Assembly (NCBI GenBank): GCA_050692915.1
Contig: JBOGVU010000004.1
Coordinates: forward strand, 1,968 to 65,967
From: Actinomycetota bacterium
GTDB lineage: Bacteria > Actinomycetota > UBA4738 > CALAEC01
DNA length: 64,000 nucleotides
Reading direction: 5' to 3'
Below, piece by piece: positions 993-64,000 of the stretch. Under the pieces are notes generated by a model. That model did no database searches and was not told where the DNA came from. It saw only the letters and a list, made by a program, of their open reading frames with translations. The number at the start of each line of letters is the position of its first letter. The first letter of the stretch is position 1. The position numbers and the translations under genes were made by a program.

Positions 993-1076
993 GCCGGGGT
1001 GGAGGAATCGGTTTACTCGGCGGCCTCAAAAGCCGCTGGCCGAAAGGCCATGCGGGTTCGAATCCCGCCCCCGGCA
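993..1076 (+). tRNA. tRNA-Leu (anticodon CAA), class II with long variable arm
   Basis: 7-bp acceptor stem GCCGGGG/CCCCGGC. Anticodon loop CUCAAAA. Variable stem-loop GGCCGAAAGGCC. T-arm GCGGG-TTCGAAT-CCCGC. Discriminator A. Confidence 0.85.
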
Positions 1077-1081
1077 CGCTC

Positions 1082-51637: not shown

Positions 51638-52650
51638 TGGGGGAGCCGCTCCTGGAAGTGCGGGATCTGACCGTCCATTTCCCGACCGACGACGGCCTGG
51701 TGAAGGCCGTTGACGGCGTGTCGTTCTCGGTCGACCGGGGGGAGACCCTCGGCGTGGTGGGGGAGTCGGGCTCCGGCAAGACCGTGACGTTCCTTACGGT
51801 GATGGGGCTGATCAGCCGGAAGTCGGCCCACGTGAGCGGCGAGGTCATCTTTCAGGGCCAGAACCTGCTCGAGCTGCCGGACGAGGACATGCAGGACATC
51901 CGGGGGTCCCGGATCAGCATGATCTTCCAGGATCCCATGACCTCGCTCCACCCCTACTACCGGGTGGGGGAGCAGATCGTGGAGGCCATCCGCACCCACC
52001 AGGACATCTCGAAGCGCGATGCCCGGAAGCAGGCCGTGGAGATGCTCCGCCGGGTAGGCATCCCTCGCCCCGACGAGAGGGTCCGCCAGTACCCGCATGA
52101 GTTCTCGGGCGGGATGCGCCAGCGGGCCATGATCGCAATGGCTCTGTCCCTGAACCCCGATCTCCTCATCGCGGACGAGCCGACCACGGCGCTCGATGTG
52201 ACCGTCCAAGCACAGATCCTCGACCTGATCGGCCGGCTGAAGGACGAGTTCGATGCATCGGTCGTGATCATCACGCACGACCTCGGCGTGGTGGCCGAGC
52301 ACGCCGACCACGTCCAGGTGATGTACGCGGGGAGGATCGCCGAGTCCGGGCGACGTAACGACATCTACTACGGCGCGCGCCACCCGTACACGTGGGGCCT
52401 CCTGCAGTCGATCACCAGACTCGATCAGCCCAGGCAGGAGCGGCTCCGCCCGATCCGGGGCCTCCCGCCGTCGTTGATCTTCGTGCCGTCCGGGTGCCCG
52501 TTCCACCCGCGGTGTCCTTACGTCATGGACGTGTGCAAGACCGAGGTGCCACCGCTCCTCAGTGAGGACGGAAAGCATGCCTCGGCCTGTCACCTTCCGC
52601 TGGCCGAGAAGGAGCGGATCTTCAACGAGGACGTGGCGGTGAAGACGTGA
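51637..52650 (+). CDS. dppD: peptide ABC transporter ATP-binding protein DppD/OppD
   Basis: GTG overlaps the dppB TAG (TAGTG). Walker A GESGSGKT, signature FSGGMRQR, C-terminal oligopeptide-transporter domain. Confidence 0.9.
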
Positions 52651-53900
52651 GCGTCACTGCACGCCGGCCCGGCCCCGGCTCCGACGGAGAGCCACTGGTC
52701 CGGTTGCGCGGGGTGAAGAAGTACTTCCCGATCACCCGGGGCATCATCCTCCAGCGCAAGGTCGGTCAGGTCCATGCCGTCGACGGGATCGACCTCGAGA
52801 TCCCCGCGGGCGAGACCTTCGGGCTCGTGGGGGAGACGGGCTGTGGGAAATCCACCACGGCCCGCCTGGTCACGCGTCTGCTCGACGCGACCGAGGGGTC
52901 GATCGAGTACGACGGCAAGGACATCACACGCCTGAGCCGCCGGAGGATGCGGCCCCTCCGACGGGAGATCGCCATGATCTTCCAGGACCCGTACGCCTCG
53001 CTGAACCCGCGGAAGACGGTGGGCTCGATCATCGGGGAGCCGTTCCAGATCCACGGCCTGGCCGGACGGACCGGGATGGGCAGCCCCTGGGCCTCCCCGG
53101 CCGCCCGGCTGGTGGGGCCCCTGATCGCGCTGGCGGCCCTCGTGATCGCGGTGGTGGCGGGGTTCTCCGCATCGATCGAGGTCCCCCTGGCGCTCCCGTT
53201 CGGGCTGCTGGGCCTGGCGATCCTGGTGGAGGTGCTTCGCCGGCTCCTGGCCCTCCCGGCCCGGCGGAGGTGGAACCGGGAGGTCCGGACGGAGGTCCAG
53301 CGGCTGATGGAGCTCGTCGGCCTCAACCCCGAGCACTACAACCGGTTCCCCCACGAGTTCTCGGGCGGCCAGCGCCAGCGGATCGGGGTGGCCCGGGCCC
53401 TGGCGCTCCGGCCTCGCCTCATCGTCTGCGACGAGCCGGTGTCCGCGCTCGACGTCTCGATCCAGGCCCAGATCCTGAACCTGCTGGAGGATCTGCAGGA
53501 GGAGTTCCACCTGACCTACCTGTTCATCGCCCACGACCTGTCGGTGGTGAAGCACATGAGCGACCAGGTGGCGGTGATGTATCTGGGTCGGATCGTGGAG
53601 ATCGCGCCGGGGGAGACGCTCTATGTGAACCCCAAGCACCCCTACACCGGCGCCCTGTTGTCCGCGGTCCCCATCCCCGATCCCGAGCTCGCCGCCCAGC
53701 GGCACCGCATCATCCTGGAGGGCGATGTGCCCTCGCCGATCGACCCCCCCTCCGGTTGTCGGTTCCATCCCAGGTGCCCGAGGGCGCAATTCCCGGTGTG
53801 CAAGGAGGACGACCCGAGGCTCACGCCGCACCACCGGGGCCAGCTCGCCGCGTGCCACTTCCCTCTAGAGGACCGGGCCGTGATAGAGTCCACGGCCTGA
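52647..53900 (+). CDS. dppF: peptide ABC transporter ATP-binding protein DppF/OppF with ~70-aa hydrophobic in-frame insertion
   Basis: Walker [10 protein letters not shown], signature FSGGQRQRI. Extra segment …[72 protein letters not shown]… (nt ~53061-53276) sits between the Q-loop and the signature. Confidence 0.85.
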
Positions 53901-53926
53901 AGGCCCAAGTTCGGAAGGGATCCACC

Positions 53927-54151
53927 ATGCTGATCGCCACCGTCATCGTGCTCCAGGTGATCTCCGCCATCCTGATGGTGCTGTTCATCCTGCTCCACGC
54001 GGGACGAGGCGGGGGCCTGTCCGACATGTTCGGCGGAGGGTCCGGTCTGGCCGGCGGCACCGCGGTCGAGCGGAACCTCGACCGGGTCACCGTGGCCACG
54101 GCCGTCGTCTTCGCGGTGACCACGTTCTACCTCGCCTGGAAGTGGGTGTAG
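53927..54151 (+). CDS. secG: preprotein translocase subunit SecG
   Basis: 74 aa, two TM segments, glycine-rich loop HAGRGGGLSDMFGGGSG. Confidence 0.8.
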   Translation: MLIATVIVLQVISAILMVLFILLHAGRGGGLSDMFGGGSGLAGGTAVERNLDRVTVATAVVFAVTTFYLAWKWV

Positions 54152-55746
54152 GGGCCCAGGGGCCCCGATCCCTGCTCGTCCTCCTGGTCGCCGTGGCGCT
54201 CCTGGCGGCCGGCTGCACAACCCCTCCCGGGCCTGAGGAGGGCCCGGTGGCGGGTCCCTCGGTGGGAGCCACGCCTCGGACCTCGCTCCGCCTGGCCACC
54301 TCCCTCCCCACGAGCCTGGACCCGCGCGAGCTGAACTCGGCCGACGGGCTCCAGCTGGCCGCCCAGCTGTTCGATGGGCTGGTGGGCTACGACCCCACCA
54401 CGCACGAAGCGATCCCGGGGGCGGCGGAGCGGTGGGACGTCGAGGAAGGAGGGAGCCGGTTCGTCTTCCACCTCCGTCAAGGGATGACCTTCCACGACGG
54501 CAGCCCGGTACGGGCCCAGGACTTCGTGTTCGCCTGGAACCGGCTGGCCGACCCTCTGGCGGCCGCGCCGTACGCGTTCCTGCTCGAGTCGGTCGAAGGG
54601 TTCGATCGATACCAGCAGCAGATCCGGGTGACCAGGCTATCGGGGGCGGTGGCCCGGGACGACCGCACCCTGGAGGTGACGCTCGTCCGCCCCTGGCGCG
54701 ATTTCGTCTCGCTCCTGGGCCATCCGGCGCTGTCTCCCGTCCCGCCGGGCGCCGGCGGGGGGTCCTTCGCGTCCCAGCCGGTCGGGAACGGGCCCTACCG
54801 TCTGGCCGCCCCCATCTCGCCGGGAACCCCGCTGCTCCTGCTGCGCTTCGACGGCTATTTCGGGACCCTCCCTCTCGTCCCGACCCTCGAGTATCGAACC
54901 TTCGACGTGGCCTCGGATGCCTGGCCGGAGTTCCTTGCCGCCGAGCTGGACGTGGCCCCCATACCGCCGGCGCTCCTGGCCGAGGCCGAGAGCAGCTACG
55001 GGGACCACGGCATCACCGAGCTGGCCCAGCTCCTGTACTGCGGCTTCGACCAGGAGGACCCTCGCTTCGCCGATCCGGCCCTGCGGCGGGCGGTCTCCCT
55101 GGCCATGGGCCGGGACGTCGTGGCGGCCGACGTGTACGGCGGCGCCGCCATCCCGGCCACTGGGATCATCCCCCCCTCGCTGCCCGGCTACCGACCGGAC
55201 ACCTGCGGGGGCCGGTGCCTGCGCGACCTGGAGGCCGCCCGAGCCCAGGCCGCCGAGGTGCCTCGAGCCAGCCGAACCTTCTCCCTCGACTACCCCGCGT
55301 CGCCCCTGGCCGACCAGCTCGCCCGGACCCTAGTGGCGCAGCTCGGGGAGGCCGGGCTCATGGTGACGCCCCGGGCCCGAAACCCGATCCGGTTCCAGGA
55401 CGTGCTGGAGGACGGGGGACAGGACCTGTTCTGCCTGGTGTGGACGGCGGACTATCCCCGGCCCCAGGCCCTCCTGGAGCCCCTGGTCGAATCGGGGTCG
55501 GCCGACAATCACTCAAACGTCTCCGACCGGGACCTCGATGTCCTGCTGGAGCGAGGGCGGGCCGAGGCGAACGCCGAGATCCGGACCGAGGTCTACGCCG
55601 AGGCCGAGCGCCTGGTCCTGGAGCGGATGCACGTGATCCCCGTGGTCTGGTTCCGCTCCCACCTGGCGGTCCGCCCCGGCGTGGAGGGGTTCGTGGTCGA
55701 CCCGCTGGGCCGGTACGATGCCGCCACGCTCCGGCTCGGCGCGTAG
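54142..55746 (+). CDS. orphan SBP family 5 lipoprotein
   Basis: Lipobox LLAAGC. SBP_bac_5-like sequence. Confidence 0.7.
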   Translation: MGVGAQGPRSLLVLLVAVALLAAGCTTPPGPEEGPVAGPSVGATPRTSLRLATSLPTSLDPRELNSADGLQLAAQLFDGLVGYDPTTHEAIPGAAERWDVEEGGSRFVFHLRQGMTFHDGSPVRAQDFVFAWNRLADPLAAAPYAFLLESVEGFDRYQQQIRVTRLSGAVARDDRTLEVTLVRPWRDFVSLLGHPALSPVPPGAGGGSFASQPVGNGPYRLAAPISPGTPLLLLRFDGYFGTLPLVPTLEYRTFDVASDAWPEFLAAELDVAPIPPALLAEAESSYGDHGITELAQLLYCGFDQEDPRFADPALRRAVSLAMGRDVVAADVYGGAAIPATGIIPPSLPGYRPDTCGGRCLRDLEAARAQAAEVPRASRTFSLDYPASPLADQLARTLVAQLGEAGLMVTPRARNPIRFQDVLEDGGQDLFCLVWTADYPRPQALLEPLVESGSADNHSNVSDRDLDVLLERGRAEANAEIRTEVYAEAERLVLERMHVIPVVWFRSHLAVRPGVEGFVVDPLGRYDAATLRLGA

Positions 55747-57247
55747 TCGCCGGCTCAGGGCCGCGCTCCTGGCGGTCCTCGCTCTGCTCGCGGCGTGTCC
55801 GGCCGACGAGCTCGAGCCACCCCCCGATCGTCGCTCCCCGGCGGGGACCGTCCGGGTGGGCTACCCGGAAGAGCCCCCGACCCTGAACCCGGCCACAGAC
55901 CCCTCCCCGGCGTCCCGGGACCTCCTGCGCCCGTTGCTGCCCTCGTTCTTCCGGATCACCCCGGATCTCCGGTACGAGCCGTCCCTGCTCGCCGCGGAGC
56001 CCGAGGTGGCGCCGGCGGGGGACCGGACCGAGATCAGGTTCCGGATCCGCGAGGACGCCGCGTGGAGCGGCGGGACCCCGGTGACCGTCCAGGACGTGGC
56101 GTTCACCTGGCGGGTGATGACGGACCCCGGCGTGGACGCGTGGAACCCCACCGGGTTCGACCGGCTGGTGGACGTGGTGTCGGACGACCCCAAGGCCGGC
56201 CGGCTGGTGCTCGACGGCCGATGGCCGGGGTGGCGGGATCTGTTCGCCGCCGGTCGGTTCGTGCTCCCCGCGCACGTCGGTGAGCCGGGATCGGTGGCCG
56301 GGTGGGACGAGGGGCCGCCGGTGACGGCCGGGCCCTACCGGCTCGACGGCTGGACCCGGGGACACTCGATCGTCATGGTCGCCGACCCCACCCACTGGGG
56401 TCCCCGGTCCGCCGTTGAACGGCTCGAGGTGCAGTTCGTGCCGGATCCCACCACGGCCCTCCAGCTCCTGGAGCGCGGGGAGCTGGACGTGGTGGCCCCG
56501 ATGGCCGGAGTGTCGTGGGGCCGGCGCCTGGCAGAGATCGCCGGCGGCGGGACCTCCAGCGCCACCGGCCCGGACGTGGTGTCCCTGGCGATGAACGCCG
56601 AGTCGGTGAGCGACGCGGACCTACGGCGACGCATCGCCCACGCCATCGACCGGAGCCGTTTCCTCGAGGTGGCCCTGCGCGATGACGCCGAGCCGGCCCA
56701 CGGGCTCCTGGTCCCCGAGCAGGAAGGGGCCGAGCCCGCCTGGGCCCGGTACGGCAACGAGCCCGCCCCCGGCGCCGCTGCGCCCGAGGAGCTAGAGATC
56801 GTGTACCCGAGGGGGGAGCTGCCGGACCTGGTGACGCGGTACGTCCAGGCTGAGCTGGAGCGGGCGGCCATCGACGTGGACCTGGTGCCCCTGGAGGCGG
56901 ACGTGCTCCAGGGGACCTTCTTGCCCTCCCGCCGCTTCGACCTGGCCCTGGTGGAGGTGCGCACCGGCCCCTCGCCCGAGCTGTGGCGATGGGTGGAGGT
57001 GCCGGGGGCGGGGACGTCCCTGACCGGCCTCGCCGACGAGGTGCTCGCGGAGATGGTCCGACGGGCCACGGAGGGATCGGCCCCGGCCCTCCGCGAGGCC
57101 CAGGCGCGGCTGGCCGAACTGGCGGTCGCCGTTCCCCTGTACCGGCCCCGGCTCACCGTCGGGTGGCGGGCCGGCATCGCCGGTCCCGCGGCCAACCCCA
57201 CCGTGGAGGGCCCACTGTGGAACGTGGAGGCCTGGTCCGCGGCCTGA
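55718..57247 (+). CDS. orphan SBP family 5-like lipoprotein
   Basis: Signal peptide with lipobox LLAAC. SBP_bac_5-like sequence. Confidence 0.65.
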   Translation: MPPRSGSARSRRLRAALLAVLALLAACPADELEPPPDRRSPAGTVRVGYPEEPPTLNPATDPSPASRDLLRPLLPSFFRITPDLRYEPSLLAAEPEVAPAGDRTEIRFRIREDAAWSGGTPVTVQDVAFTWRVMTDPGVDAWNPTGFDRLVDVVSDDPKAGRLVLDGRWPGWRDLFAAGRFVLPAHVGEPGSVAGWDEGPPVTAGPYRLDGWTRGHSIVMVADPTHWGPRSAVERLEVQFVPDPTTALQLLERGELDVVAPMAGVSWGRRLAEIAGGGTSSATGPDVVSLAMNAESVSDADLRRRIAHAIDRSRFLEVALRDDAEPAHGLLVPEQEGAEPAWARYGNEPAPGAAAPEELEIVYPRGELPDLVTRYVQAELERAAIDVDLVPLEADVLQGTFLPSRRFDLALVEVRTGPSPELWRWVEVPGAGTSLTGLADEVLAEMVRRATEGSAPALREAQARLAELAVAVPLYRPRLTVGWRAGIAGPAANPTVEGPLWNVEAWSAA

Positions 57248-57284
57248 ACCCGGCCAGGGGACGGGACCGTATACTTGGTCCCGC

Positions 57285-57371
57285 GTCGGAGTGGCGGAAT
57301 CTGGTAGACGCGCTAGGTTGAGGGCCTAGTCCGGCTCGCGCCGGGTGAGGGTTCAAATCCCTCCTCCGACA
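57285..57371 (+). tRNA. tRNA-Leu (anticodon GAG), class II
   Basis: Acceptor stem GTCGGAG/CTCCGAC. D-arm resembles E. coli tRNA-Leu (UGGCGGAAUCUGGUAGACGC). Anticodon loop UUGAGGG. Long variable arm. T-arm GAGGG-TTCAAAT-CCCTC. Confidence 0.85.
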
Positions 57372-57374
57372 CCC
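57360..57374 (+). repeat. attL-like core: 15 bp at the tRNA-Leu(GAG) 3' end (CCTCCTCCGACACCC)
   Basis: Exact direct repeat of 63807-63821. Confidence 0.6.
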
Positions 57375-57452
57375 TCTGAGCAGGGAATCTCCCTGTCCTC
57401 AACTCGGCGAAGCTCATACTGCCCACCACCATTTCCTCTCGGCAGGCAGGAC

Positions 57453-58235
57453 TCATACGCAGGGCTCGACGCTGAAATCCTGATGACCCCTCCCGTGCGC
57501 AAACCGCGGCGCCCAGGTCGCGGACACCAGGTCCCACGCGCCGCCCGAGTTCTTCTCGAACTGGAGCAGGTAGCGGATGGCTTGGATGGAGTCGTCGAGC
57601 AGGCCCTCCAGGGTGACGGTCACCTCTGCCCGTTCTCCCCCCTAGAGGGCCGCCTCTTGGAGGACCGCAGTGGCGGAGGCGGCCTGATCCGGGTCGCTCG
57701 GGTCTCCGAGGTCGAGGAATTCCAGGGCGATTCTCGCCGGCGAATCCCCCCACGAAAGAGCCGTGTCGTCCAGATACCGATTGAACTCGGCTACGGAGAT
57801 TGCGCCGGACTCATCCGGAGGCGCAGGCCCGTCCCAGGTTGGAGAGGAGGATCCGGGTGCGGAGGAAGTCCCGAGGGGCGGGTACTCCTCGAAGCTCTCC
57901 ACGCGCCACGATCCGGAGGGGTCGAGGACGAGCGTTGCCTCGCCGACCCACTCGCTGAACGGAGGCCCAACGCCGTACACGGCACGGCCGTCGGTGCCGG
58001 AGAACCTCGCGGTGCACATGCCCCGGGGGATATCGCCATCGGGGGGAACTTCTTGTGGGCATGTGCCGACGTACCGGGTGCCGAACCGGTCCCGTACGAA
58101 GGCGGCCAGTGCCCGCTCGATCGTGGGCGGCGAGGAGGGAGGAGCTTCGGAGGCATCCCGTCTGAGCAGGAGGACGCCACCGACCACCGCAACGGCGGCC
58201 ACGGTCAGGACTGCAGCCAGGGCCCTCCTCGGCAT
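57453..58235 (-). pseudogene. membrane-anchored hypothetical protein interrupted by an in-frame TAG (57642-57644)
   Basis: ORF 57642..58235 continues in the same frame past the TAG for a further 62 codons of protein-like sequence (GGERAEVTVTLEGLLDDSIQAIRYLLQFEKNSGGAWDLVSATW…) to TGA at 57453. Confidence 0.45.
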
Positions 58236-58375
58236 ATCAGGACTTTAGACGCGCGATTGCCCTTCGAAGTTCCGCGCCGGTTCGAGCAGGCTCCGCGAGC
58301 CCGGGTTGGGGGGAACGACTGCCTCCCTGGACGGGGACGGATTCGGCGGGGCGGGCTGAGATTTGGCGACTCGAG

Positions 58376-59002
58376 GTGAAAGGAGGAGCTGGTCCCGGAC
58401 AGTTAGGGTTCAGAAACAGCAGCAGGGAGGAAACCCTGGACGAGGAACGCCAAATCCGCTTCCGGAAGCTGTACGAGGCTCACGCCGATCGCGTGCTGGT
58501 GTACGCCCTGCGTCGGGTCCCGGCCGGCGAGGCTGCCGACATCGTGTCCGAGACATTCCTCGCAGCGTGGCGCAGGCTGGACATCGTCCCTGAGGATTCC
58601 GCACCGTGGCTGTTCGGAGTGGCCCGGAAGGTGGTGGCCAATCACCGGCGATCACTGAGGCGTGGACAAGCGTTGCGGGCTCGGGTGGAAGGTGACTCCT
58701 CCCGCAGACCGCACCTCGCTCCCGATCCAGCGGATCAGGTGGAGGCCAGGATGGCGATCCGCTCCGCGCTACATCGCCTCTCGGAGTGGGATCGGGAGGC
58801 CCTGACGCTGGTCGCCTGGGACGGGCTGGACGCGGTGGACGCCGCCGCGGCCATGGGCTACACACCTGCCGCCTTCGCCGTTCGGCTGCACCGCGCCCGG
58901 CGTCGGCTGGGGCGTGAGCTCACGAAAGAACGGGCCGGAGCCGGACATGTCCGGGATGATGGGCGTGTGCGCGCCATACCGGCCATCGAGGAGGAGAGAT
59001 GA
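58376..59002 (+). CDS. ECF (sigma-70 family) RNA polymerase sigma factor (start uncertain: GTG 58376 or CTG 58436)
   Basis: Region 2 (LVYALRRVPAGEAADIVSETFLAAWRRL) and region 4 (LTLVAWDGLDAVDAAAAMGYTPAAFAVRLHRARRRL). Confidence 0.8.
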   Translation: MKGGAGPGQLGFRNSSREETLDEERQIRFRKLYEAHADRVLVYALRRVPAGEAADIVSETFLAAWRRLDIVPEDSAPWLFGVARKVVANHRRSLRRGQALRARVEGDSSRRPHLAPDPADQVEARMAIRSALHRLSEWDREALTLVAWDGLDAVDAAAAMGYTPAAFAVRLHRARRRLGRELTKERAGAGHVRDDGRVRAIPAIEEER

Positions 59003-60033
59003 CGCTGGACGTGATGGAGCTGCTACGGCGGAGCGACCCAGTTGATCCTGTTGGGATCGAGGGGTGGGCCAGGGGAGAAGAAGGGAGGCGGGTGTTGCTC
59101 CAGATCGTGGAGACGAGCTCGCCGGTACGCCCTCCGCTTTCTCGCCGACGCAGGCTGGCCGTCATCCCCGCAGGGGCGGGCGCGCTGGCCCTCGCCCTGA
59201 TCGTTGGCTCAATGCTTCTGCCCGCAGGGAGGGGCACCATCTCGGCGGAGGCCGCGGTGGTCCTCCGGTCGGCCGCGAGGGTGGCCGGCGCCCAGCCCCC
59301 GGTTCCATCCGACGGTCGGTACCGATACACCCGGTCCGAGGACGCCTACCTGGGGACCTACGTGGAGCGAGGGGGAAGCTTCTCCGTGTTGCTCCCGCAG
59401 CGCCGCGAGATATGGGTCGCGCCGGACGGCTCCGGGCGGCTGCGGGAGGACGAGAGCGGCGAACCGATTTTCCTCGGGCCCCGGGACCGGTCGACGTGGG
59501 AAGCGTCGGGTCGCCCGGCGCTGGAGGAATCCGGACCCTCGGATCAGACCTTCCAGCCAGGTGGCCTGTACTACGCAGACCTCACGGGATACTCCACCGA
59601 CCCCGACGAGCTGTACGGACAGATCCAGCGCCGGGCGGAGGGGCCCAAGACTTCGGGGGAGCCGGTACCGGAGGGCGCCCCGGCGGCAGTGAAGATGTTC
59701 ACGATCGTCGGAGACCTCCTGCGGGAGACGGCGGCCCCACCGGAGCTACGGGCCGCGCTGTATGAGGTCGCCGCGCGCATCCCCGGCGTGATTCTTGTCG
59801 GCGAGGTGACGGACCCTGTGGGGCGGCCCGGGATGGCCGTGGCCATGGCCTCCGAGGCCGACGGGGTTCGCCGAGAGCTCGTGTTCGACCCCGAGACGTC
59901 GGAGCTGCTCGCCGAGCGGCAGGTACTCCTCCGCCGCGTGAGATGGGTGGACGCCGCCCCCGGGACGGTGATCGGCTGGGCCGCCTACCTCAAATCGGGA
60001 ACGGTGGATTCCACGTCCGCCCGCCCTTCCTGA
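58999..60033 (+). CDS. putative anti-sigma factor / CU044_5270-like membrane protein
   Basis: ATGA overlap with the sigma-factor gene. N-terminus MTLDVMELLRRSDP, single TM segment, extracytoplasmic domain. Confidence 0.55.
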   Translation: MTLDVMELLRRSDPVDPVGIEGWARGEEGRRVLLQIVETSSPVRPPLSRRRRLAVIPAGAGALALALIVGSMLLPAGRGTISAEAAVVLRSAARVAGAQPPVPSDGRYRYTRSEDAYLGTYVERGGSFSVLLPQRREIWVAPDGSGRLREDESGEPIFLGPRDRSTWEASGRPALEESGPSDQTFQPGGLYYADLTGYSTDPDELYGQIQRRAEGPKTSGEPVPEGAPAAVKMFTIVGDLLRETAAPPELRAALYEVAARIPGVILVGEVTDPVGRPGMAVAMASEADGVRRELVFDPETSELLAERQVLLRRVRWVDAAPGTVIGWAAYLKSGTVDSTSARPS

Positions 60034-60065
60034 AGCGCCGACCGCGGGGGCGAACGGAGGAGAAC

Positions 60066-60179
60066 ATGAGCTGGCGGGGAAGCCTCGCCAGGCCGCTATC
60101 CGAGAGCAAGTTCTCCTCGGGTGATGAGCGGTGTGCCTACGGTTGCGGTCGGGCCGTTCCCGGCGCGACCGAGCCTTAG
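60066..60179 (+). CDS. small ORF (37 aa, MSWRGSLARPLSESKFSSGDERCAYGCGRAVPGATEP) with strong RBS
   Basis: GGAGGAGAAC precedes the ATG with ~5 nt spacing. The 3' end is convergent with the oxidase gene. Confidence 0.25.
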   Translation: MSWRGSLARPLSESKFSSGDERCAYGCGRAVPGATEP

Positions 60180-61576
60180 TCCGGCGGGATGTTCTGGTTC
60201 AGCCGGAAAAAGTTCTCGGGGTCGTACTTCCTCTTCAATGCCTTCAGGCGCTGGTACTTCGCAGCCCCGTATGCCTGGCGGACCCGTTCCTGGCCTTCGT
60301 CCATCAGGAAGTTCACGTAGAGGCTCGTGCGGTAGGGCTCCAGGGCCGTCCCGAGCCGGCGCGCCCACTCGCGCTCCTCCTCGAACCCCTCGGCGGTCTG
60401 GCTGTTCCCGTTGATGTTAAAGGTGTGACCCGCGCCACGACCTGCGAAGGCGGTATCGTCCTCGCCGGCGCGGGCGACCGCCCCGCCCATCTGCCAGAGC
60501 CCCACGCTGCTGATCGGGGACTCGATCTGGCGCCCGTACTCCACCATGACGTCGATGATGTCGTCGTTGAGTTCGGCCACGTCGCAGGAACGGAAGTAGT
60601 AGTGCCACCCGGGCTCGAAGCTGGGGTCGTACATCCGCTGGTGCTCGGCGAACGGCCTGGGGACGCACAGATCCAGGGCAGGTGAGCCGAACCCCTTCAG
60701 TGGCCGCAGCACCCTCTCACCTTCCTCTACGGACCCGGCGTAGCAGCTCACCACGGCGACCACCCGCTCCCCGACGAGATCGTGAGGCATGCCTTCGATC
60801 CCCGGCGCCCTGCGCTCGACGATCAGGGTCATCAGGTCGTCGGGGCAGTCGGCGACCCAGTCCCGGTAGAAGCGCAGGACGCTCGGCGCGTCGCCGATCG
60901 GCCAGAAGATCGGCCCGGCCACGACCTGTGGCCCGAGCGGACTCAGCCGGAACTCGAACTCCGTGACGATGCCGAAGTTGCCGCCTCCTCCCCGGACGCC
61001 CCAGAACAGGTCGGTGTTCTCTCGCTCGCTCGCCCGGACCAGCTGGCCCTCGGCCGTGACCAGGTCTACCGAGAGCAGGTTGTCGATAGTGAGGCCGAAC
61101 TTCCGCATGGTGAACCCGATGCCCCCGCCCAGGGTGAGACCGGCCAGGCCCGTGTGCGAGACGAAGCCCGCGGGGACGACGTATCCGAACGCCTGGGTCT
61201 CGCGGTCGAGCTCGCCCAGGAGGAGACCAGGCTGGGCTCGAACCGTTCGGCCCTGGGGGTCGACCCGGACCCCTTTCATCGGGGACAGGTCGATGACCAT
61301 GCCCCCGTCGCACACAGAGTGGCCCGGGAAGCTGTGCCCCCCACCTCGGACGGCTACGAGCAGGCCGTGCTCCCTGGCGAAGCGAACCGACGCGATCACG
61401 TCCGCCGTGCCGGCACAACGCGCGATCAGCGCGGGGAACCGGTCGATCGACCCGTTCCAGACCTTCCTGTGCAGGTCGTAGGTGGCTTCACCGGGACCAA
61501 CCAGCTCTCCGCGGAGCGCGGAGGCCAGCTCTGCGGTCGCCCCATCATCGATATGGATACCCTCGCTCGTAGCCAT
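60176..61576 (-). CDS. FAD-linked oxidase, BBE-like (PCMH-type FAD binding)
   Basis: Start MATSEG at 61576. VRGGGHSF FAD motif. C-terminal BBE motif YDPENFFRLNQNIPP. Confidence 0.8.
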   Translation of the reverse strand: MATSEGIHIDDGATAELASALRGELVGPGEATYDLHRKVWNGSIDRFPALIARCAGTADVIASVRFAREHGLLVAVRGGGHSFPGHSVCDGGMVIDLSPMKGVRVDPQGRTVRAQPGLLLGELDRETQAFGYVVPAGFVSHTGLAGLTLGGGIGFTMRKFGLTIDNLLSVDLVTAEGQLVRASERENTDLFWGVRGGGGNFGIVTEFEFRLSPLGPQVVAGPIFWPIGDAPSVLRFYRDWVADCPDDLMTLIVERRAPGIEGMPHDLVGERVVAVVSCYAGSVEEGERVLRPLKGFGSPALDLCVPRPFAEHQRMYDPSFEPGWHYYFRSCDVAELNDDIIDVMVEYGRQIESPISSVGLWQMGGAVARAGEDDTAFAGRGAGHTFNINGNSQTAEGFEEEREWARRLGTALEPYRTSLYVNFLMDEGQERVRQAYGAAKYQRLKALKRKYDPENFFRLNQNIPPD

Positions 61577-61619
61577 CGCTCCCTCCTCGACGGCAGTATC
61601 CACGTCTAGCCGACTCCTG

Positions 61620-62309
61620 TCAGGAACCTGAGTTCCACCCCTGTTCCAGGGTGAGCCGGGATGGGTCGATGATGACGATCCCGTCGCGCTGTGTCCGCAC
61701 AACGCCTTCCCGACGAAGTTCGCGCAGCACCCGTACGATGACCTCCCGGACCGTCCCCGCGGCCTCCGCCAGTTCTCTCTGGCTGACCCCAGCGACGAGT
61801 TCCTGCCCTGTCTGGTGGCCCGGCCCCCGCTCCGAAGCGAGGTCCAGCAGGTGTCGGGCCACGCGCTGCCGCACGGTGGCAAAGGCACTCCCGGGAATCT
61901 CGTAGATGAAGGCCCACGCCCTTTCGCTGAGCTCGCCCAGGAAGGCTCGGGCGACTCGCACGTCTCGCTCCGCCGCTCGGGAGACGACCATCGGGGACAT
62001 CTTCAACAGCTCCGCGTCCACGAACGCCTGCACCGTCGCCGGCATCACGAACTCCGTCGTGAATAGGGACATGGCTCCGAGCAGAGCCCCGGGTCGGCAG
62101 TACCGAACGGTCATCGTACGTCCATCGGGTGCAGTCACGAACGCCCGCAGGATGCCGGAGATGACCAGTTCGAGATGCCGGGGATCCTCACCCTCCCTAT
62201 GAGTCACCGACCCCGCGGGAATCCTCGTTCCAACGGCATCTCTCAGGAGCTCTCGGAGCACCTCCCGCGGCAGTTCACGCAGGTGGGACTTGGAGACCGC
62301 GGAGCGCAC
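61620..62309 (-). CDS. Crp/Fnr-family transcriptional regulator
   Basis: cNMP-binding domain plus C-terminal HTH (VSQRELAEAAGTVREVIVRVLRELRREG). Lies 43 nt upstream of the oxidase gene on the same strand. Confidence 0.85.
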   Translation of the reverse strand: MRSAVSKSHLRELPREVLRELLRDAVGTRIPAGSVTHREGEDPRHLELVISGILRAFVTAPDGRTMTVRYCRPGALLGAMSLFTTEFVMPATVQAFVDAELLKMSPMVVSRAAERDVRVARAFLGELSERAWAFIYEIPGSAFATVRQRVARHLLDLASERGPGHQTGQELVAGVSQRELAEAAGTVREVIVRVLRELRREGVVRTQRDGIVIIDPSRLTLEQGWNSGS

Positions 62310-62665
62310 ATCCGCGTCAACGGTGGCATCCTACGACTGCCCATGACTGGTCAGAGATGCGACGGAGCGAGACGGACCTGCCACTCGTCGGATCAGGACG
62401 AGATCAGAGAAGCCAGCACAACCAGTCAGGACGTAGTCCCCCACGGCCTAAGCCTCCAGTCGGGGCTCCAGTGGTCGTTTGTGCCGGTCGGTCCTCCTAC
62501 ACAGCAGAGCAAGCAGATGCGGGCCCGATCTTGATAACCTCGAGGGCCGGTAACCGGTCCGGGGTCATCTCTCTCCCACGCTTAAGAGGCTTTTAGAGGG
62601 GGGCCGGGAAGGGTCCCTGTTGCCGGTGACAGGAGCCTTATGGTCGCGTGCGCAGAGCCATGCGC

Positions 62666-63591
62666 TTATGTCAACTCCACCGACGGTTGTCTTGAGTTCT
62701 CGAAATCTCGTGGGTTCGGGCCCTCCAGTTCGGTCCGGAACAGCACGCTGACCCATGAGCGATATGGACGCCACCTCTCCGCAATCTCGGTCAGCTTCTC
62801 GATGGATGGGATCTCGGCGAACCCGTAGGCATCCGCCATGGCACGCTGCAGACGCCGCTCCTTCCGAGGGAAGTAGTCGGGATCGCCCGCGCCTCGAACG
62901 AGAATCAATTCCGCGGAGAAGTCGCCAACTCCCGGAAGACTCTTCAGGCCCCCAAGGGCCTCATCGGGAGGCCGCGACCTGAGCCGGTGAGCGTTAAGCC
63001 GACCATCCAGGGCAGCCCGGGCCACCTCGTGGAGCTGCATGATCTTGCGCCCAAACAGCCCCGGAAATCCGCGCATCGAGAGGAGTCGGTGTGGCCCCGG
63101 GAAGGCGTACAGCCGTTCCCCGTGAACATCGACCTTCTCGCCGCGCTGTTCGGCCATGCGCTGCTTGATCGATGCGGCCTGAGCGATTCGAATCCGATGG
63201 CCAATGATCGTCCACGCCGCGGCTTCGTAGGGCGACCAGAACAGGACCGGGCGCAGCCCCGGATACCCGCTCTGCAGCCGCCCGATCACAGGATCTCGTC
63301 GAGCGACCGCCGCGAATCCCGATCCGTCGACGTCGAGTGAGAGGATCCGTGCCAGCTGCCGGCGCACCGCGGTTCGGTCTGCCTCGCCGAAGATCTCAGC
63401 GATCACCGCCTTGCCGGGCTGGCGCAGACACGCGCCCACGGAGTCCCACCTCCCCTCCACGGGGAAGGCGAGGTGAAGGTGGTCAGCGGTACCTGCGAGC
63501 CTTCGTAGGCGGCGGGTACGAAGCCCTCGAGGAAGCGGCTGCTGGCTTCAAGGGAGAAGGGGCCTCGAGGGATGATTCGGAAGGTCGTCAT
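62666..63591 (-). pseudogene. DNA-3-methyladenine glycosylase II (AlkA-like, HhH-GPD) with a frameshift between N-terminal and catalytic domains
   Basis: The AlkA N-terminal domain (MTTFRIIPRGPFSLEASSRFLEGF) is in ORF 63403..63681, while the HhH-GPD part is in a different frame in ORF 62666..63460. The two overlap across 63403-63460. Confidence 0.6.
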
Positions 63592-63806
63592 CCTGCCAGC
63601 TCCTTCGGTGCCGATGGCCCTGCACGACCGATCGTAAAGACTCGGACGCCTGAGGTCTCCCGGCCAGGTTTCGCCCACCACTGGCTCCGGACTCCTGATC
63701 CGCCGCTCAGTCTGCCAGGATCCGCTCTCCTCGGACCGCCGGGCATGTGCTTATGGCTCGAATCACCCCTCCGACACACCTGTCCACTATCCTGTGAACT
63801 CAGAGA

Positions 63807-63821
63807 CCTCCTCCGACACCC
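63807..63821 (+). repeat. attR-like exact 15-bp copy of the tRNA-Leu(GAG) 3' end; degenerate second copy at 63761-63780
   Basis: CCTCCTCCGACACCC is identical to 57360-57374. Confidence 0.6.
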
Positions 63822-63958
63822 CTTCTGACCGAGAACGAGAACGATCTCTGGGAAGTGGAGACTTTCGTCCGCGACGGAACCTCCTACATCCTGGGGAGCG
63901 ACCGGGACGACGGCTCTGGATCTTCAAGCGCACCGACAGCCAGTCGGCGCTTCTCGGG

Positions 63959-63990
63959 AAGGGGGCCGGCCTCCGGGCCGGCCCCCTTCT
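63959..63990. terminator. strong GC hairpin GGGGGCCGGCC-TCCG-GGCCGGCCCCC flanked by AA/TT
   Basis: Perfect 11-bp inverted repeat followed by TTCT. Could act bidirectionally. Confidence 0.5.
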
Positions 63991-64000
63991 CACGTTTCCC

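What the first reader, a model, noticed from the sequence alone, without database searches (positions are those of the whole stretch)
57285..63821. tRNA-Leu(GAG)-anchored genomic island delimited by an exact 15-bp direct repeat, with decayed cargo and no integrase
The last 15 nt of the tRNA (CCTCCTCCGACACCC, 57360-57374) recur exactly at 63807-63821. A second, degenerate copy (AATCACCCCTCCGACACACC, 63761-63780) lies just upstream of it. This is the classic attL/attR signature of tRNA-targeted integration. The 6.4 kb between them carries an amber-interrupted gene, an ECF sigma/anti-sigma pair, a small Cys-containing ORF, a Crp-regulated BBE-like flavin oxidase operon, a frameshifted AlkA-like glycosylase and a lower-GC intergenic stretch. 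No integrase or excisionase is present. The element therefore looks like a fixed, decaying island, or is mobilised in trans.
Basis: seen in the sequence. Interest (0 to 1): 0.7.

Follow-up and report, generated by a model that had tools for sequence, protein, structure and literature searches.

The report
Decayed gene island beside tRNA-Leu
A 6.4-kb stretch next to a leucine tRNA gene in an uncultured soil actinobacterium is the worn-down, recombinase-less remains of several past insertions at that tRNA; it is a real but ordinary kind of strain-variable genomic island.

Summary
tRNA-Leu(GAG) is at 57285-57373. Its last 15 nt recur exactly at 63807-63821 and nowhere else in the window (chance about 1e-3 or less).

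Relatives show that these are real island borders. A 97%-identical contig (L013) diverges exactly after 57374. A 90%-identical contig (L014) has the same tRNA, then 1.7 kb of unrelated DNA (one M1 peptidase gene). It then has a displaced tRNA scrap joined to the same right flank as window 63809-63984.

The cargo has lower GC3 than the 38 core genes (0.74-0.88 against 0.92±0.03). Two genes are confirmed pseudogenes: one amber stop and one AlkA frameshift. No recombinase gene or remnant is present.

The island is composite. Two more decayed tRNA-3' scraps lie at 62493-62515 and about 63721-63779. Each gene module occurs in other contexts in relatives. The oxidase-Crp module abuts a 59-nt tRNA-Leu fragment in L027. 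A prophage with a tyrosine integrase sits at the same kind of tRNA in L040.

Best reading: successive site-specific integrations at a tRNA hot spot, followed by decay. The element is not autonomously mobile, and mobilisation in trans is untested. It is a new member of a well-known kind, of low interest.

The parts
57285..57373 (+). Intact tRNA-Leu(GAG), the integration target. Its 3' end is the left border (attL-like) of the island.
   Evidence: ARAGORN. Rfam RF00005 scores 54.6 bits. SBP_bac_5 gene followed by tRNA-Leu(GAG) is conserved in relatives from genomes and metagenomes (tRNA found in L003, L004, L006-L009, L013-L016, L018).
57353..57374 (+). Repeat copy 1: T-loop to 3' end of the tRNA plus 1 nt. 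The exact 15-mer core is 57360-57374.
   Evidence: Homology with L013 (97.4%) ends at 57374, and with L014 and L018 at 57372.
57453..58235 (-). Membrane-anchored hypothetical protein gene inactivated by an in-frame amber codon (TAG at 57642-57644; GAG/Glu in homologues).
   Evidence: Intact homologues of 255-259 aa exist. Identical sequence is present in two independent assemblies. GC3 is 0.78. Homologues sit in unrelated contexts.
58376..59002 (+). ECF-type sigma factor gene.
   Evidence: Pfam Sigma70_r2 and Sigma70_r4_2. GC3 is 0.74.
58999..60033 (+). CU044_5270-family protein, the partner of the ECF sigma gene (4-nt overlap of reading frames).
   Evidence: NCBIfam NF038083, 7.2e-46. The sigma+CU044 pair (58352-60057) recurs at 77-81% nucleotide identity in L028-L031 in other contexts.
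60176..61576 (-). FAD-linked oxidase of the BBE/VAO type.
   Evidence: Pfam FAD_binding_4 (7.9e-32) and BBE (3.7e-13). Thousands of homologues, the best at 72-88% identity. Found in three other contexts.
61620..62309 (-). Crp/Fnr-family regulator, upstream of and co-oriented with the oxidase.
   Evidence: Pfam cNMP_binding and HTH_Crp_2. The pair is conserved in L027 (82% nt over 62325-60155) but not in L024 or L025.
62493..62515 (+). Internal decayed tRNA-3' scar plus trailer (CCTCCTACAC|AGCAGAGCAAGCA) in the low-GC spacer. It probably extends left to about 62430.
   Evidence: 22 of 23 nt match the end and trailer of the 59-nt tRNA-Leu fragment of L027 (blastn-short E 2.5e-5). Local score is 41 against a maximum of 29 in 100 shuffles.
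62666..63681 (-). AlkA-type DNA-3-methyladenine glycosylase pseudogene, with a frameshift near 63490-63510.
   Evidence: The same frameshift is in Logan contig L023. GC3 is 0.75.
63721..63779 (+). Decayed long tRNA-Leu-like 3' fragment (anticodon stem to 3' end).
   Evidence: 63758-63779, 82%. 63721-63776 matches L031 5579-5634 at 87.5%, E 1e-12. It is not significant against the tRNA alone.
63800..63821 (+). Repeat copy 3: short displaced tRNA 3' fragment (exact 15-mer at 63807-63821). This is the right border (attR-like) of the whole array.
   Evidence: Homology with L014 resumes at 63809, where L014 has its own scrap TCCTCCGACAC.
63822..64000 (+). Conserved right flank outside the island: non-coding, strongly folding, ending in a GC-rich hairpin at 63958-63989.
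   Evidence: 83.6% identical to L014 6916-7087, with single-base indels. RNA fold z-score is -4.35. No covariation with only two sequences. No Rfam family.

Best explanation
The region 57375-63806 is a composite, decayed genomic island built at the 3' end of tRNA-Leu(GAG) by several successive site-specific integrations.

Proposed history (inferred):
1. Each incoming element carried a copy of the tRNA 3' part in its attP.
2. Recombination by its integrase regenerated the tRNA and pushed the previous 3' end, and everything behind it, to the right.
3. The oldest scar is the short T-loop-type fragment at 63800-63821, still joined to the original flank.
4. Two longer anticodon-arm-type scars (about 63721-63779 and about 62430-62515) mark later events, probably by an integrase of different sublocation preference.
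5. The recombination and transfer genes of all these elements have since been deleted.
6. What is left is accessory cargo under weak selection. Two genes (the hypothetical membrane protein gene and AlkA) are already pseudogenes. The sigma/CU044 pair and the Crp-oxidase pair are still intact.

The island cannot move by itself.

Shown: the repeat, the borders, strain variability, compositional deviation, the pseudogenes, absence of a recombinase, and use of this tRNA species by an integrase-bearing prophage elsewhere.

Inferred: the order of events, that the cargo arrived with the integrating elements, and loss of the integrases by deletion.
For: - The exact 15-mer is in direct orientation at both ends, with low chance expectation.
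- Breakpoints of homology fall on the repeat copies. L013 (97.4% nt) stops at 57374. L014 (89.6%) stops at 57372 and resumes at 63809 after 1.7 kb of unrelated DNA, with its own displaced scrap. L018 carries a third, different cargo.
- Contigs of all seven close genome relatives end 0.3-1.8 kb after this tRNA or SBP gene, as expected at a population-variable site.
- The island has the lowest GC (0.673 against 0.705) and the largest tetranucleotide distance of any 6.4-kb segment.
- GC3 of island genes is 0.74-0.88, against 0.916±0.029 for 38 core genes.
- The rest of the window is core chromosome: PolA, S1, UvrABC, GAPDH, TIM.
- Further scars lie inside the island.
- The Crp-oxidase module lies 43 nt from a 59-nt tRNA-Leu(GAG) 3' fragment in L027.
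- A prophage fragment (TerL, HNH) has its tyrosine integrase (Phage_integrase 1e-25) 54 nt from a homologous tRNA-Leu(GAG) in L040.
- The tail of a large serine recombinase abuts the tRNA in L018.
- The principle that a regenerated tDNA and its displaced fragment mark island ends, and the two attP classes (T-stem and anticodon-centred), are described in PMC4383910.
- Older elements being pushed inward, with partial tRNAs scattered in islands, is described in bioRxiv 10.1101/2020.12.28.424599.
Against: - No empty site (tRNA joined directly to 63822 onward) was found. The exact-junction scan of metagenomes gave nothing. L013 has a similar 12-nt trailer but then different DNA.
- None of the inserts seen in close relatives (window, L014, the part of L013 available, L018) contains an intact integrase, so arrival of this particular cargo by integration is not shown.
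- The cargo modules are ordinary-looking chromosomal genes. Their homologues sit in non-island contexts in other genomes.
- One of the internal scars (63758-63779) is not statistically significant against the tRNA alone.
- Only 179 nt of right flank are visible, so the array could continue beyond the window.
Confidence: 0.7

Rival explanations
1. Hot-spot turnover by homologous recombination. The tRNA scraps are scars of unrelated elements that came and went. The present cargo was brought in, or swapped between strains, by ordinary homologous recombination using the conserved tRNA/SBP side and the conserved right flank as anchors. On this view it is not cargo of an integrating element.
For: - Cargo modules are non-mobile housekeeping-like accessory genes that occur singly in other chromosomal contexts.
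- L014's insert is a single peptidase gene with no mobility function.
- Both flanks are conserved between the window and L014.
- There are no recombinase remnants in the island.
Against: - The borders of divergence coincide to the nucleotide with the tRNA-derived repeat rather than lying somewhere in the flanks.
- The Crp-oxidase and sigma-CU044 modules are each found near tRNA-Leu 3' scraps in other genomes as well.
- Island GC3 is clearly lower than core GC3, which argues against exchange only among near-identical strains.
- This rival and the best explanation are not mutually exclusive.
Confidence: 0.2
2. A still-functional cis-mobilizable element (CIME-like). The island lacks its own integrase but keeps usable attL and attR. 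It is excised and integrated by a tRNA-Leu(GAG)-specific integrase encoded elsewhere in the genome or by an incoming element.
For: - The 15-nt core is perfectly conserved at both ends, although the cargo is decaying.
- Integrase-bearing elements that use this tRNA species exist in related organisms (L040).
- The CIME concept and accretion are documented in PMC5704250.
Against: - No integrase is found in 64 kb of context.
- Only 15 nt are identical, and the T-loop part of the right copy is mutated (TCAGAGA against TCAAATC).
- No second copy of the island, no attP junction and no empty site were found.
- The element looks like a mosaic rather than a conserved unit.
Confidence: 0.08
3. Artefact: either a chance repeat in GC-rich DNA, or a chimeric metagenome assembly joined at a conserved tRNA.
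For: - Independent contigs of the same organism start inside the tRNA (L001 at 57303, L002 at 57346). The SBP-tRNA-island join therefore rests on the window's assembly alone.
- One of 400 simulations reached a 15-nt match.
Against: - L014 carries left flank, tRNA, insert, scrap and the same right flank on one contig.
- L023 independently links the island to the right flank.
- L001 links 71 nt of the tRNA to the island.
- The repeat position coincides with two independent homology breakpoints.
Confidence: 0.03

Closest known systems
tDNA genomic islands as defined by Islander (Hudson, Lau and Williams; PMC4383910)
   Same: - An intact regenerated tRNA gene lies at one end and a displaced 3' fragment in the same orientation at the other.
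- Both fragment types described there occur here: short T-stem/T-loop type and long anticodon-centred type.
- The islands form a tandem array at one tDNA.
   Different: Islander requires an integrase gene in each island, and there is none here. The array members are reduced to 20 nt, 1.2 kb and 5.1 kb of non-mobile cargo.
CIMEs (cis-mobilizable elements) and accretion tandems of streptococcal ICEs/IMEs (PMC5704250)
   Same: [quoted passage not shown] Several such remnants are stacked at one site.
   Different: - Mobilisation by a helper integrase is undemonstrated, and no helper is seen.
- The phylum is different (uncultured soil Actinomycetota).
- The right-hand site is partly mutated.
- There is no evidence that the unit has ever moved as such.
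Prochlorococcus tRNA-flanked genomic islands built by tycheposons (bioRxiv 10.1101/2020.12.28.424599)
   Same: - These are variable islands next to a tRNA, with partial tRNAs scattered inside them.
- Incoming elements push older ones inward.
- Most islands contain no active element, only cargo and remnants.
   Different: No tycheposon-type replication or integration module or fragmented integrase is seen here. The single recombinase-bearing element found at this tRNA species is a prophage fragment (L040).
Dehalococcoides ssrA-specific genomic islands (PMC3146451)
   Same: Site-specific islands at a small-RNA gene, delimited by direct repeats of its 3' end.
   Different: Those islands keep their integrase and carry a coherent adaptive operon. 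I took only the title and abstract of that paper from the search result.

Membership tests
tDNA-integrated genomic island (Islander definition) | Intact tRNA/tmRNA gene at one end | tested here: met
   tRNA-Leu(GAG) at 57285-57373 (ARAGORN; Rfam 54.6 bits).
tDNA-integrated genomic island (Islander definition) | Displaced fragment of the same tDNA, in the same orientation, at the other end | tested here: met
   Exact 15 nt (22 nt at 86%) at 63800-63821 on the + strand. Chance is about 1e-3 or less.
tDNA-integrated genomic island (Islander definition) | Integrase gene inside the island | tested here: not met
   All genes were assigned by Pfam, NCBIfam or PDB searches and none is a recombinase. 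The largest unassigned gap is 356 nt. tblastn with the L040 integrase finds no hit in the window at E<=5.
tDNA-integrated genomic island (Islander definition) | Absent from, or different in, close relatives, with breakpoints at the att repeats | tested here: met
   L013, L014 and L018 diverge at 57372-57374. L014 rejoins at 63809. A true empty site was not found.
tDNA-integrated genomic island (Islander definition) | Composition different from the host chromosome | tested here: met
   GC is 0.673 against 0.705, with the largest tetranucleotide distance in the window. GC3 is 0.74-0.88 against 0.916±0.029. The effect is moderate.
CIME (cis-mobilizable element) | No integration or transfer genes, but attL and attR retained | tested here: met
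   No recombinase, relaxase or transfer gene. A 15-nt identical core is present at both ends.
CIME (cis-mobilizable element) | Excision or transfer promoted by a related element's integrase (accretion-mobilisation) | not testable with these tools
   This needs reads or PCR for attP/attB junctions, or the complete genome. No helper integrase is present in 64 kb.
Prophage / ICE / IME | Own recombinase plus phage structural genes, or conjugation/mobilisation genes | tested here: not met
   None of these is in the island. By contrast, L040 at the same tRNA species has an integrase, HNH and TerL.
Transposon / IS-mediated insertion | Transposase, terminal inverted repeats, short target-site duplication | tested here: not met
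   No transposase. No terminal inverted repeat pair at 57375/63806 among the repeats found. The repeat is tRNA-derived and 15-22 nt long.

The most novel reading that the evidence does not exclude
The tRNA-Leu(GAG) locus of this actinobacterial lineage could be a cassette-like array. Small recombinase-less gene modules of one to a few genes (for example the single M1 peptidase gene in L014, or the Crp-oxidase pair that abuts a tRNA fragment in L027) would each carry a tRNA-3'-plus-trailer site. A trans-acting integrase encoded elsewhere would insert and exchange them. This would be functionally akin to integron cassettes or satellite elements, but anchored on a tRNA gene.
Probability: 0.06. 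Interest if true: 0.6.

Novelty: new member of a known kind. Interest (0 to 1): 0.22.

Why it matters
The region marks a precise boundary between the core chromosome (PolA-UvrABC-glycolysis-peptide transport) and a fast-turning accessory region in an uncultured soil Actinomycetota lineage. It also gives a worked example of how tRNA-3' scraps can be used to dissect successive integration events when no integrase survives.

For annotation, it warns that integrase-dependent island finders will miss such regions. It also warns that contigs of these MAGs break systematically at this tRNA.

It does not reveal a new mechanism.

Tried and rejected
1. Empty-site search. The exact hypothetical attB junction TTCAAATCCCTCCTCCGACACCCCTTCTGACC gave no hit in the metagenome collection. 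L013 has one extra T in that trailer and then unrelated DNA, so it is not an empty site.
2. attP or phage search in IMG/VR. The 24-nt tRNA end, the attL junction and the L027-type junction all gave no hit. A degenerate tRNA-end pattern gave six loci. Five are phage tRNA clusters or unrelated DNA; only L040 is relevant.
3. Retrieval of DNA beyond 64000. Exact-protein look-ups returned only 3-kb contigs that end at 63986 or earlier. The 68,645-nt NCBI contig that carries MGH2655368.1 could not be fetched.
4. Integrase remnants. tblastn with the L040 integrase against the window and all loci gave nothing meaningful. Pfam and NCBIfam gave nothing on the unassigned ORFs.
5. The 'serine recombinase tail' in L018 has no Pfam or NCBIfam hit. 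Support comes only from a 58-aa tblastn match (E 1e-5) to the tail of a frameshifted serine-recombinase pseudogene on a Mycolicibacterium plasmid. I treat this as weak.
6. I considered that L013 and L027 are two halves of one arrangement (tRNA, then LVIVD protein, then tRNA scrap, then oxidase). I rejected this because the two secreted proteins are not homologous.
7. A possible further scar at about 60088-60115 (CCGAGAGCAAG) between the sigma/CU044 module and the oxidase module is not significant, and I make no claim for it.
8. Rfam found nothing in the region except the tRNA. The right-flank structure shows no covariation with two sequences.

Full report
**1. Observation**

ARAGORN places tRNA-Leu(GAG) at 57285-57373, and Rfam's tRNA model agrees (54.6 bits). 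The 15-mer CCTCCTCCGACACCC covers the T-stem 3' strand, the acceptor 3' strand, the discriminator base and CCC. It occurs exactly twice in 64 kb, at 57360-57374 and 63807-63821, both on the + strand.

In register the similarity extends to 22 nt, starting in the T-loop (86% identity). A third copy lies 42 nt to the left, at 63758-63779 (82%). Under a first-order Markov model of the window, 8e-5 exact copies are expected in the 6.6 kb downstream. Any 15-nt sub-word of the last 30 nt of the tRNA recurred in 1 of 400 simulated sequences.

**2. Gene content**

The 6,432 nt between the copies contain the following.

- **A 260-codon gene for a membrane-anchored hypothetical protein (57453-58235, minus strand).** It is interrupted by TAG at 57642-57644. 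Intact homologues of 255-259 aa have Glu at that position and align over 100% of the read-through product.
- **An ECF sigma factor gene (58376-59002) and an overlapping CU044_5270-family gene (58999-60033)**.
- **A FAD_binding_4/BBE oxidase gene (60176-61576, minus strand), preceded by a Crp/Fnr regulator gene (61620-62309, minus strand)**.
- **A 356-nt low-GC spacer.**
- **An AlkA-type glycosylase gene (62666-63681, minus strand) split by a frameshift.** The 264-aa part matches E. coli AlkA (2.4e-11) and NCBIfam PRK10308. A conceptually repaired protein aligns in one piece (residues 1-284, 45% identity, 5e-61) to a single reading frame in Nonomuraea.

Both lesions are present in independent assemblies of the same organism. 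L001 and L002 equal window 57303-60518 at 100% identity, and L023 equals 60851-63986 at 99.97%. They are therefore not errors of one assembly.

No ORF is a recombinase, and the largest unassigned gap is 356 nt. tblastn with a tyrosine integrase taken from a prophage at a homologous tRNA (see section 5) finds nothing in the window.

The 37-codon 'Cys-containing ORF' (60067-60179) straddles the junction between two modules whose homology to other genomes ends at 60057 and starts at 60145-60155. It is probably not a gene.

**3. Is it an island? Comparison with relatives**

The upstream SBP_bac_5 gene was used as an anchor. In uncultured Actinomycetota from the genome and metagenome collections, the SBP gene is followed by tRNA-Leu(GAG). 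Three close relatives are decisive.

- **L013** is 97.4% identical to window 51727-57374 and then loses all similarity, exactly after the last base of the repeat.
- **L014** is 89.6% identical up to 57372. It then has 1.7 kb consisting of one M1-peptidase lipoprotein gene. After that comes a displaced scrap, TCCTCCGACAC, followed by DNA that is 83.6% identical to window 63809-63984.
- **L018** is 89.6% identical up to 57372. It then carries 5.3 kb of yet other genes: glyoxalases, an adenylate cyclase and an AlkZ-like glycosylase.

The contigs of all seven closer genome relatives stop 0.3-1.8 kb after the tRNA or SBP gene, which fits a population-variable site.

The rest of the window is core chromosome: DNA polymerase I, ribosomal protein S1, UvrA/B/C, RapZ, GAPDH, TIM and peptide ABC transporters. 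It has no recombinase.

The island has the lowest GC (0.673 against 0.705) and the largest tetranucleotide distance of all 6.4-kb segments (0.0201; the others are 0.0181 or less). At the codon level the signal is clearer. GC3 of 38 core genes is 0.916±0.029, with a minimum of 0.797. The island genes have 0.74 (sigma), 0.75 (AlkA), 0.78 (hypothetical protein, Crp), 0.84 (CU044) and 0.88 (oxidase).

**4. It is composite**

The oxidase has thousands of close homologues, and their contexts differ.

- **L024, L025 and L026** have the oxidase alone, among unrelated genes.
- **L027** has the Crp-oxidase pair (82% nt identity to 62325-60155). Only 43 nt beyond the oxidase stop codon it has a 59-nt 3' fragment of tRNA-Leu(GAG), running from the anticodon arm to the 3' end. 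The fragment has the same relative orientation as in the window, and no intact tRNA lies on the contig.

The end of that fragment plus its 13-nt trailer (CCTCCGACAC|AGCAGAGCAAGCA) recurs, 22 of 23 nt, at window 62493-62515, in the low-GC spacer between Crp and AlkA. The blastn-short E-value is 2.5e-5, and the local score is 41 against a maximum of 29 in 100 shuffles. Weaker similarity extends about 60 nt to the left.

Window 63721-63776 is 87.5% identical (E 1e-12) to L031 5579-5634. That stretch of L031 holds several tRNA-3'-like scraps and lies 1.6 kb from a homologous sigma/CU044 module. Against the tRNA alone this copy is not significant.

The array therefore reads as follows:

tRNA | 5.1 kb (hypothetical-protein pseudogene, sigma/CU044, oxidase, Crp) | scar | 1.2 kb (AlkA pseudogene) | long scar | 20 nt | short scar | conserved flank.

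The sigma/CU044 module (58352-60057) and the hypothetical gene (57449-58274) also occur separately in unrelated contexts. Even the 5.1-kb segment is therefore a mosaic.

**5. Is this tRNA a real integration target?**

A degenerate search for the tRNA's 3' end in IMG/VR found L040. There, a tRNA-Leu(GAG) of the same type is followed after 54 nt by a convergently oriented tyrosine integrase gene (Phage_integrase 1e-25, with SAM-like and arm-binding domains). Further along lie HNH and large-terminase genes. So integrase-bearing elements do use this tRNA species.

In L018, the ORF that abuts the tRNA end resembles the C-terminal tail of a large serine recombinase. The support is 46.6% identity over 58 aa (E 1e-5) to a frameshifted Recombinase/Zn_ribbon_recom pseudogene on a Mycolicibacterium plasmid. 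This is weak evidence for another decayed recombinase at the site.

**6. Mechanism**

The anatomy matches the established scheme for tDNA islands. Integration splits the tRNA gene. The element's attP restores the gene, and the displaced 3' fragment marks the far end (PMC4383910). Repeated integrations then push older elements inward and leave partial tRNAs inside the island (bioRxiv 10.1101/2020.12.28.424599; accretion and CIMEs in PMC5704250).

The short T-loop-type scar and the long anticodon-arm-type scars correspond to the two main attP classes tabulated by Islander. This suggests that integrases of at least two specificities acted here.

After each tRNA copy there is a loosely conserved trailer, C(T)TCTGA(G/C)C..., seen in the tRNAs of several relatives and in the displaced scraps. 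The recombining identity block therefore probably ran about 10-15 nt past the tRNA.

The order of events, the arrival of the cargo with the elements and the deletion of the integrases are all inferences.

**7. Rivals**

- **Hot-spot turnover by homologous recombination.** The cargo may have been exchanged using the conserved flanks, with the scraps being scars of unrelated visitors. The evidence does not exclude this, and both processes may have contributed.
- **A still-mobilisable CIME.** This is possible but unsupported. No helper integrase, attP junction, second copy or empty site was found, and the right-hand site is mutated in its T-loop part.
- **Chance or assembly chimera.** This is unlikely. 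L014 carries both flanks on one contig, and L001 and L023 independently link the tRNA to the island and the island to the right flank.

**8. Verdict**

The finding is correct and its interpretation essentially right, with one refinement: this is a stack of decayed remnants rather than one island. It fails the Islander membership criterion of an integrase. It fits the descriptive definition of a CIME-like remnant, but without any evidence of mobilisation.

This is a common phenomenon in a little-studied lineage: a new member of a known kind, of low interest. What remains unknown is the DNA beyond 64000 and whether any trans-acting integrase exists in the genome.

Noticed in passing
window 63822-64000 (and L014 6930-7133): The flank just outside the island is non-coding (single-base indels relative to L014) yet 84% conserved. 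It folds unusually well (-90.7 kcal/mol, z -4.35) and ends in a 14-bp GC hairpin at 63958-63989. Two independent contigs (L023 and L014) end at or just after this hairpin. It could be a small RNA, a terminator, or the edge of another repeat.
   Followed up: partly
L027 3748-3806 (JGI Ga0533587_0024914): A 59-nt 3' fragment of tRNA-Leu(GAG), from anticodon arm to 3' end, lies 43 nt from the stop codon of a Crp-oxidase pair that is 82% identical to the window's. ARAGORN finds no intact tRNA on this 7.9-kb contig.
   Followed up: yes
L031 5200-5650 (JGI Ga0506524_0006732): This stretch holds a cluster of tRNA-3'-like scraps: a T-arm/acceptor-like GGTTCGACTCCTTCAGCGCCCACGA, and GGTTCGAATCGCCCCTCCGACA. 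It also holds two copies of AGCAGAT(T)TAAGCA...GTACGCA, reminiscent of the AGCAGAGCAAGCA trailer. It lies 1.6 kb from a sigma/CU044 module homologous to the window's. It looks like another accretion site.
   Followed up: partly
L040 92-1753 (IMGVR_UViG_3300037697_000140): A prophage fragment has a tyrosine integrase gene ending 54 nt from a tRNA-Leu(GAG) of the same family, with HNH and TerL genes downstream. This is direct evidence that this tRNA species is used as attB.
   Followed up: yes
L018 833-1255 (minus strand): The ORF overlapping the tRNA's 3' end resembles only the C-terminal tail of large serine recombinases (tblastn E 1e-5 to a plasmid pseudogene). It has no Pfam hit and is possibly a truncated recombinase remnant.
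   Followed up: partly
window 57374-57390, 63822-63836 and 62503-62515; tRNA trailers in L007, L008, L009, L013, L014: The 10-15 nt after each full or partial tRNA copy share a loose motif, C(T)TCTGA(G/C)C(A/G)G. The window's attL trailer (CTCTGAGCAGG) is identical over 11 nt to that of the distant relative L009. The trailer at the right-hand scar resembles that of L013. This suggests the att identity block runs past the tRNA, or that the trailer is functionally constrained.
   Followed up: partly
L003-L009, L013, L015, L016 (contig ends): Contigs from many independent assemblies end within about 0.05-2 kb downstream of this tRNA-Leu(GAG). Two contigs of the source organism start inside it. 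It is a systematic assembly breakpoint, consistent with strain heterogeneity at the site.
   Followed up: partly
window 60058-60144: This 87-nt junction between the sigma/CU044 module and the oxidase module has no homology in any locus fetched. A weak, non-significant resemblance to the scar trailer (CCGAGAGCAAG at 60100-60110) was noted.
   Followed up: partly
window 993-1077 and 1082-1723: A second tRNA, tRNA-Leu(CAA), is followed immediately by a 213-aa ORF with no Pfam family. I did not examine whether this tRNA also borders variable DNA.
   Followed up: no
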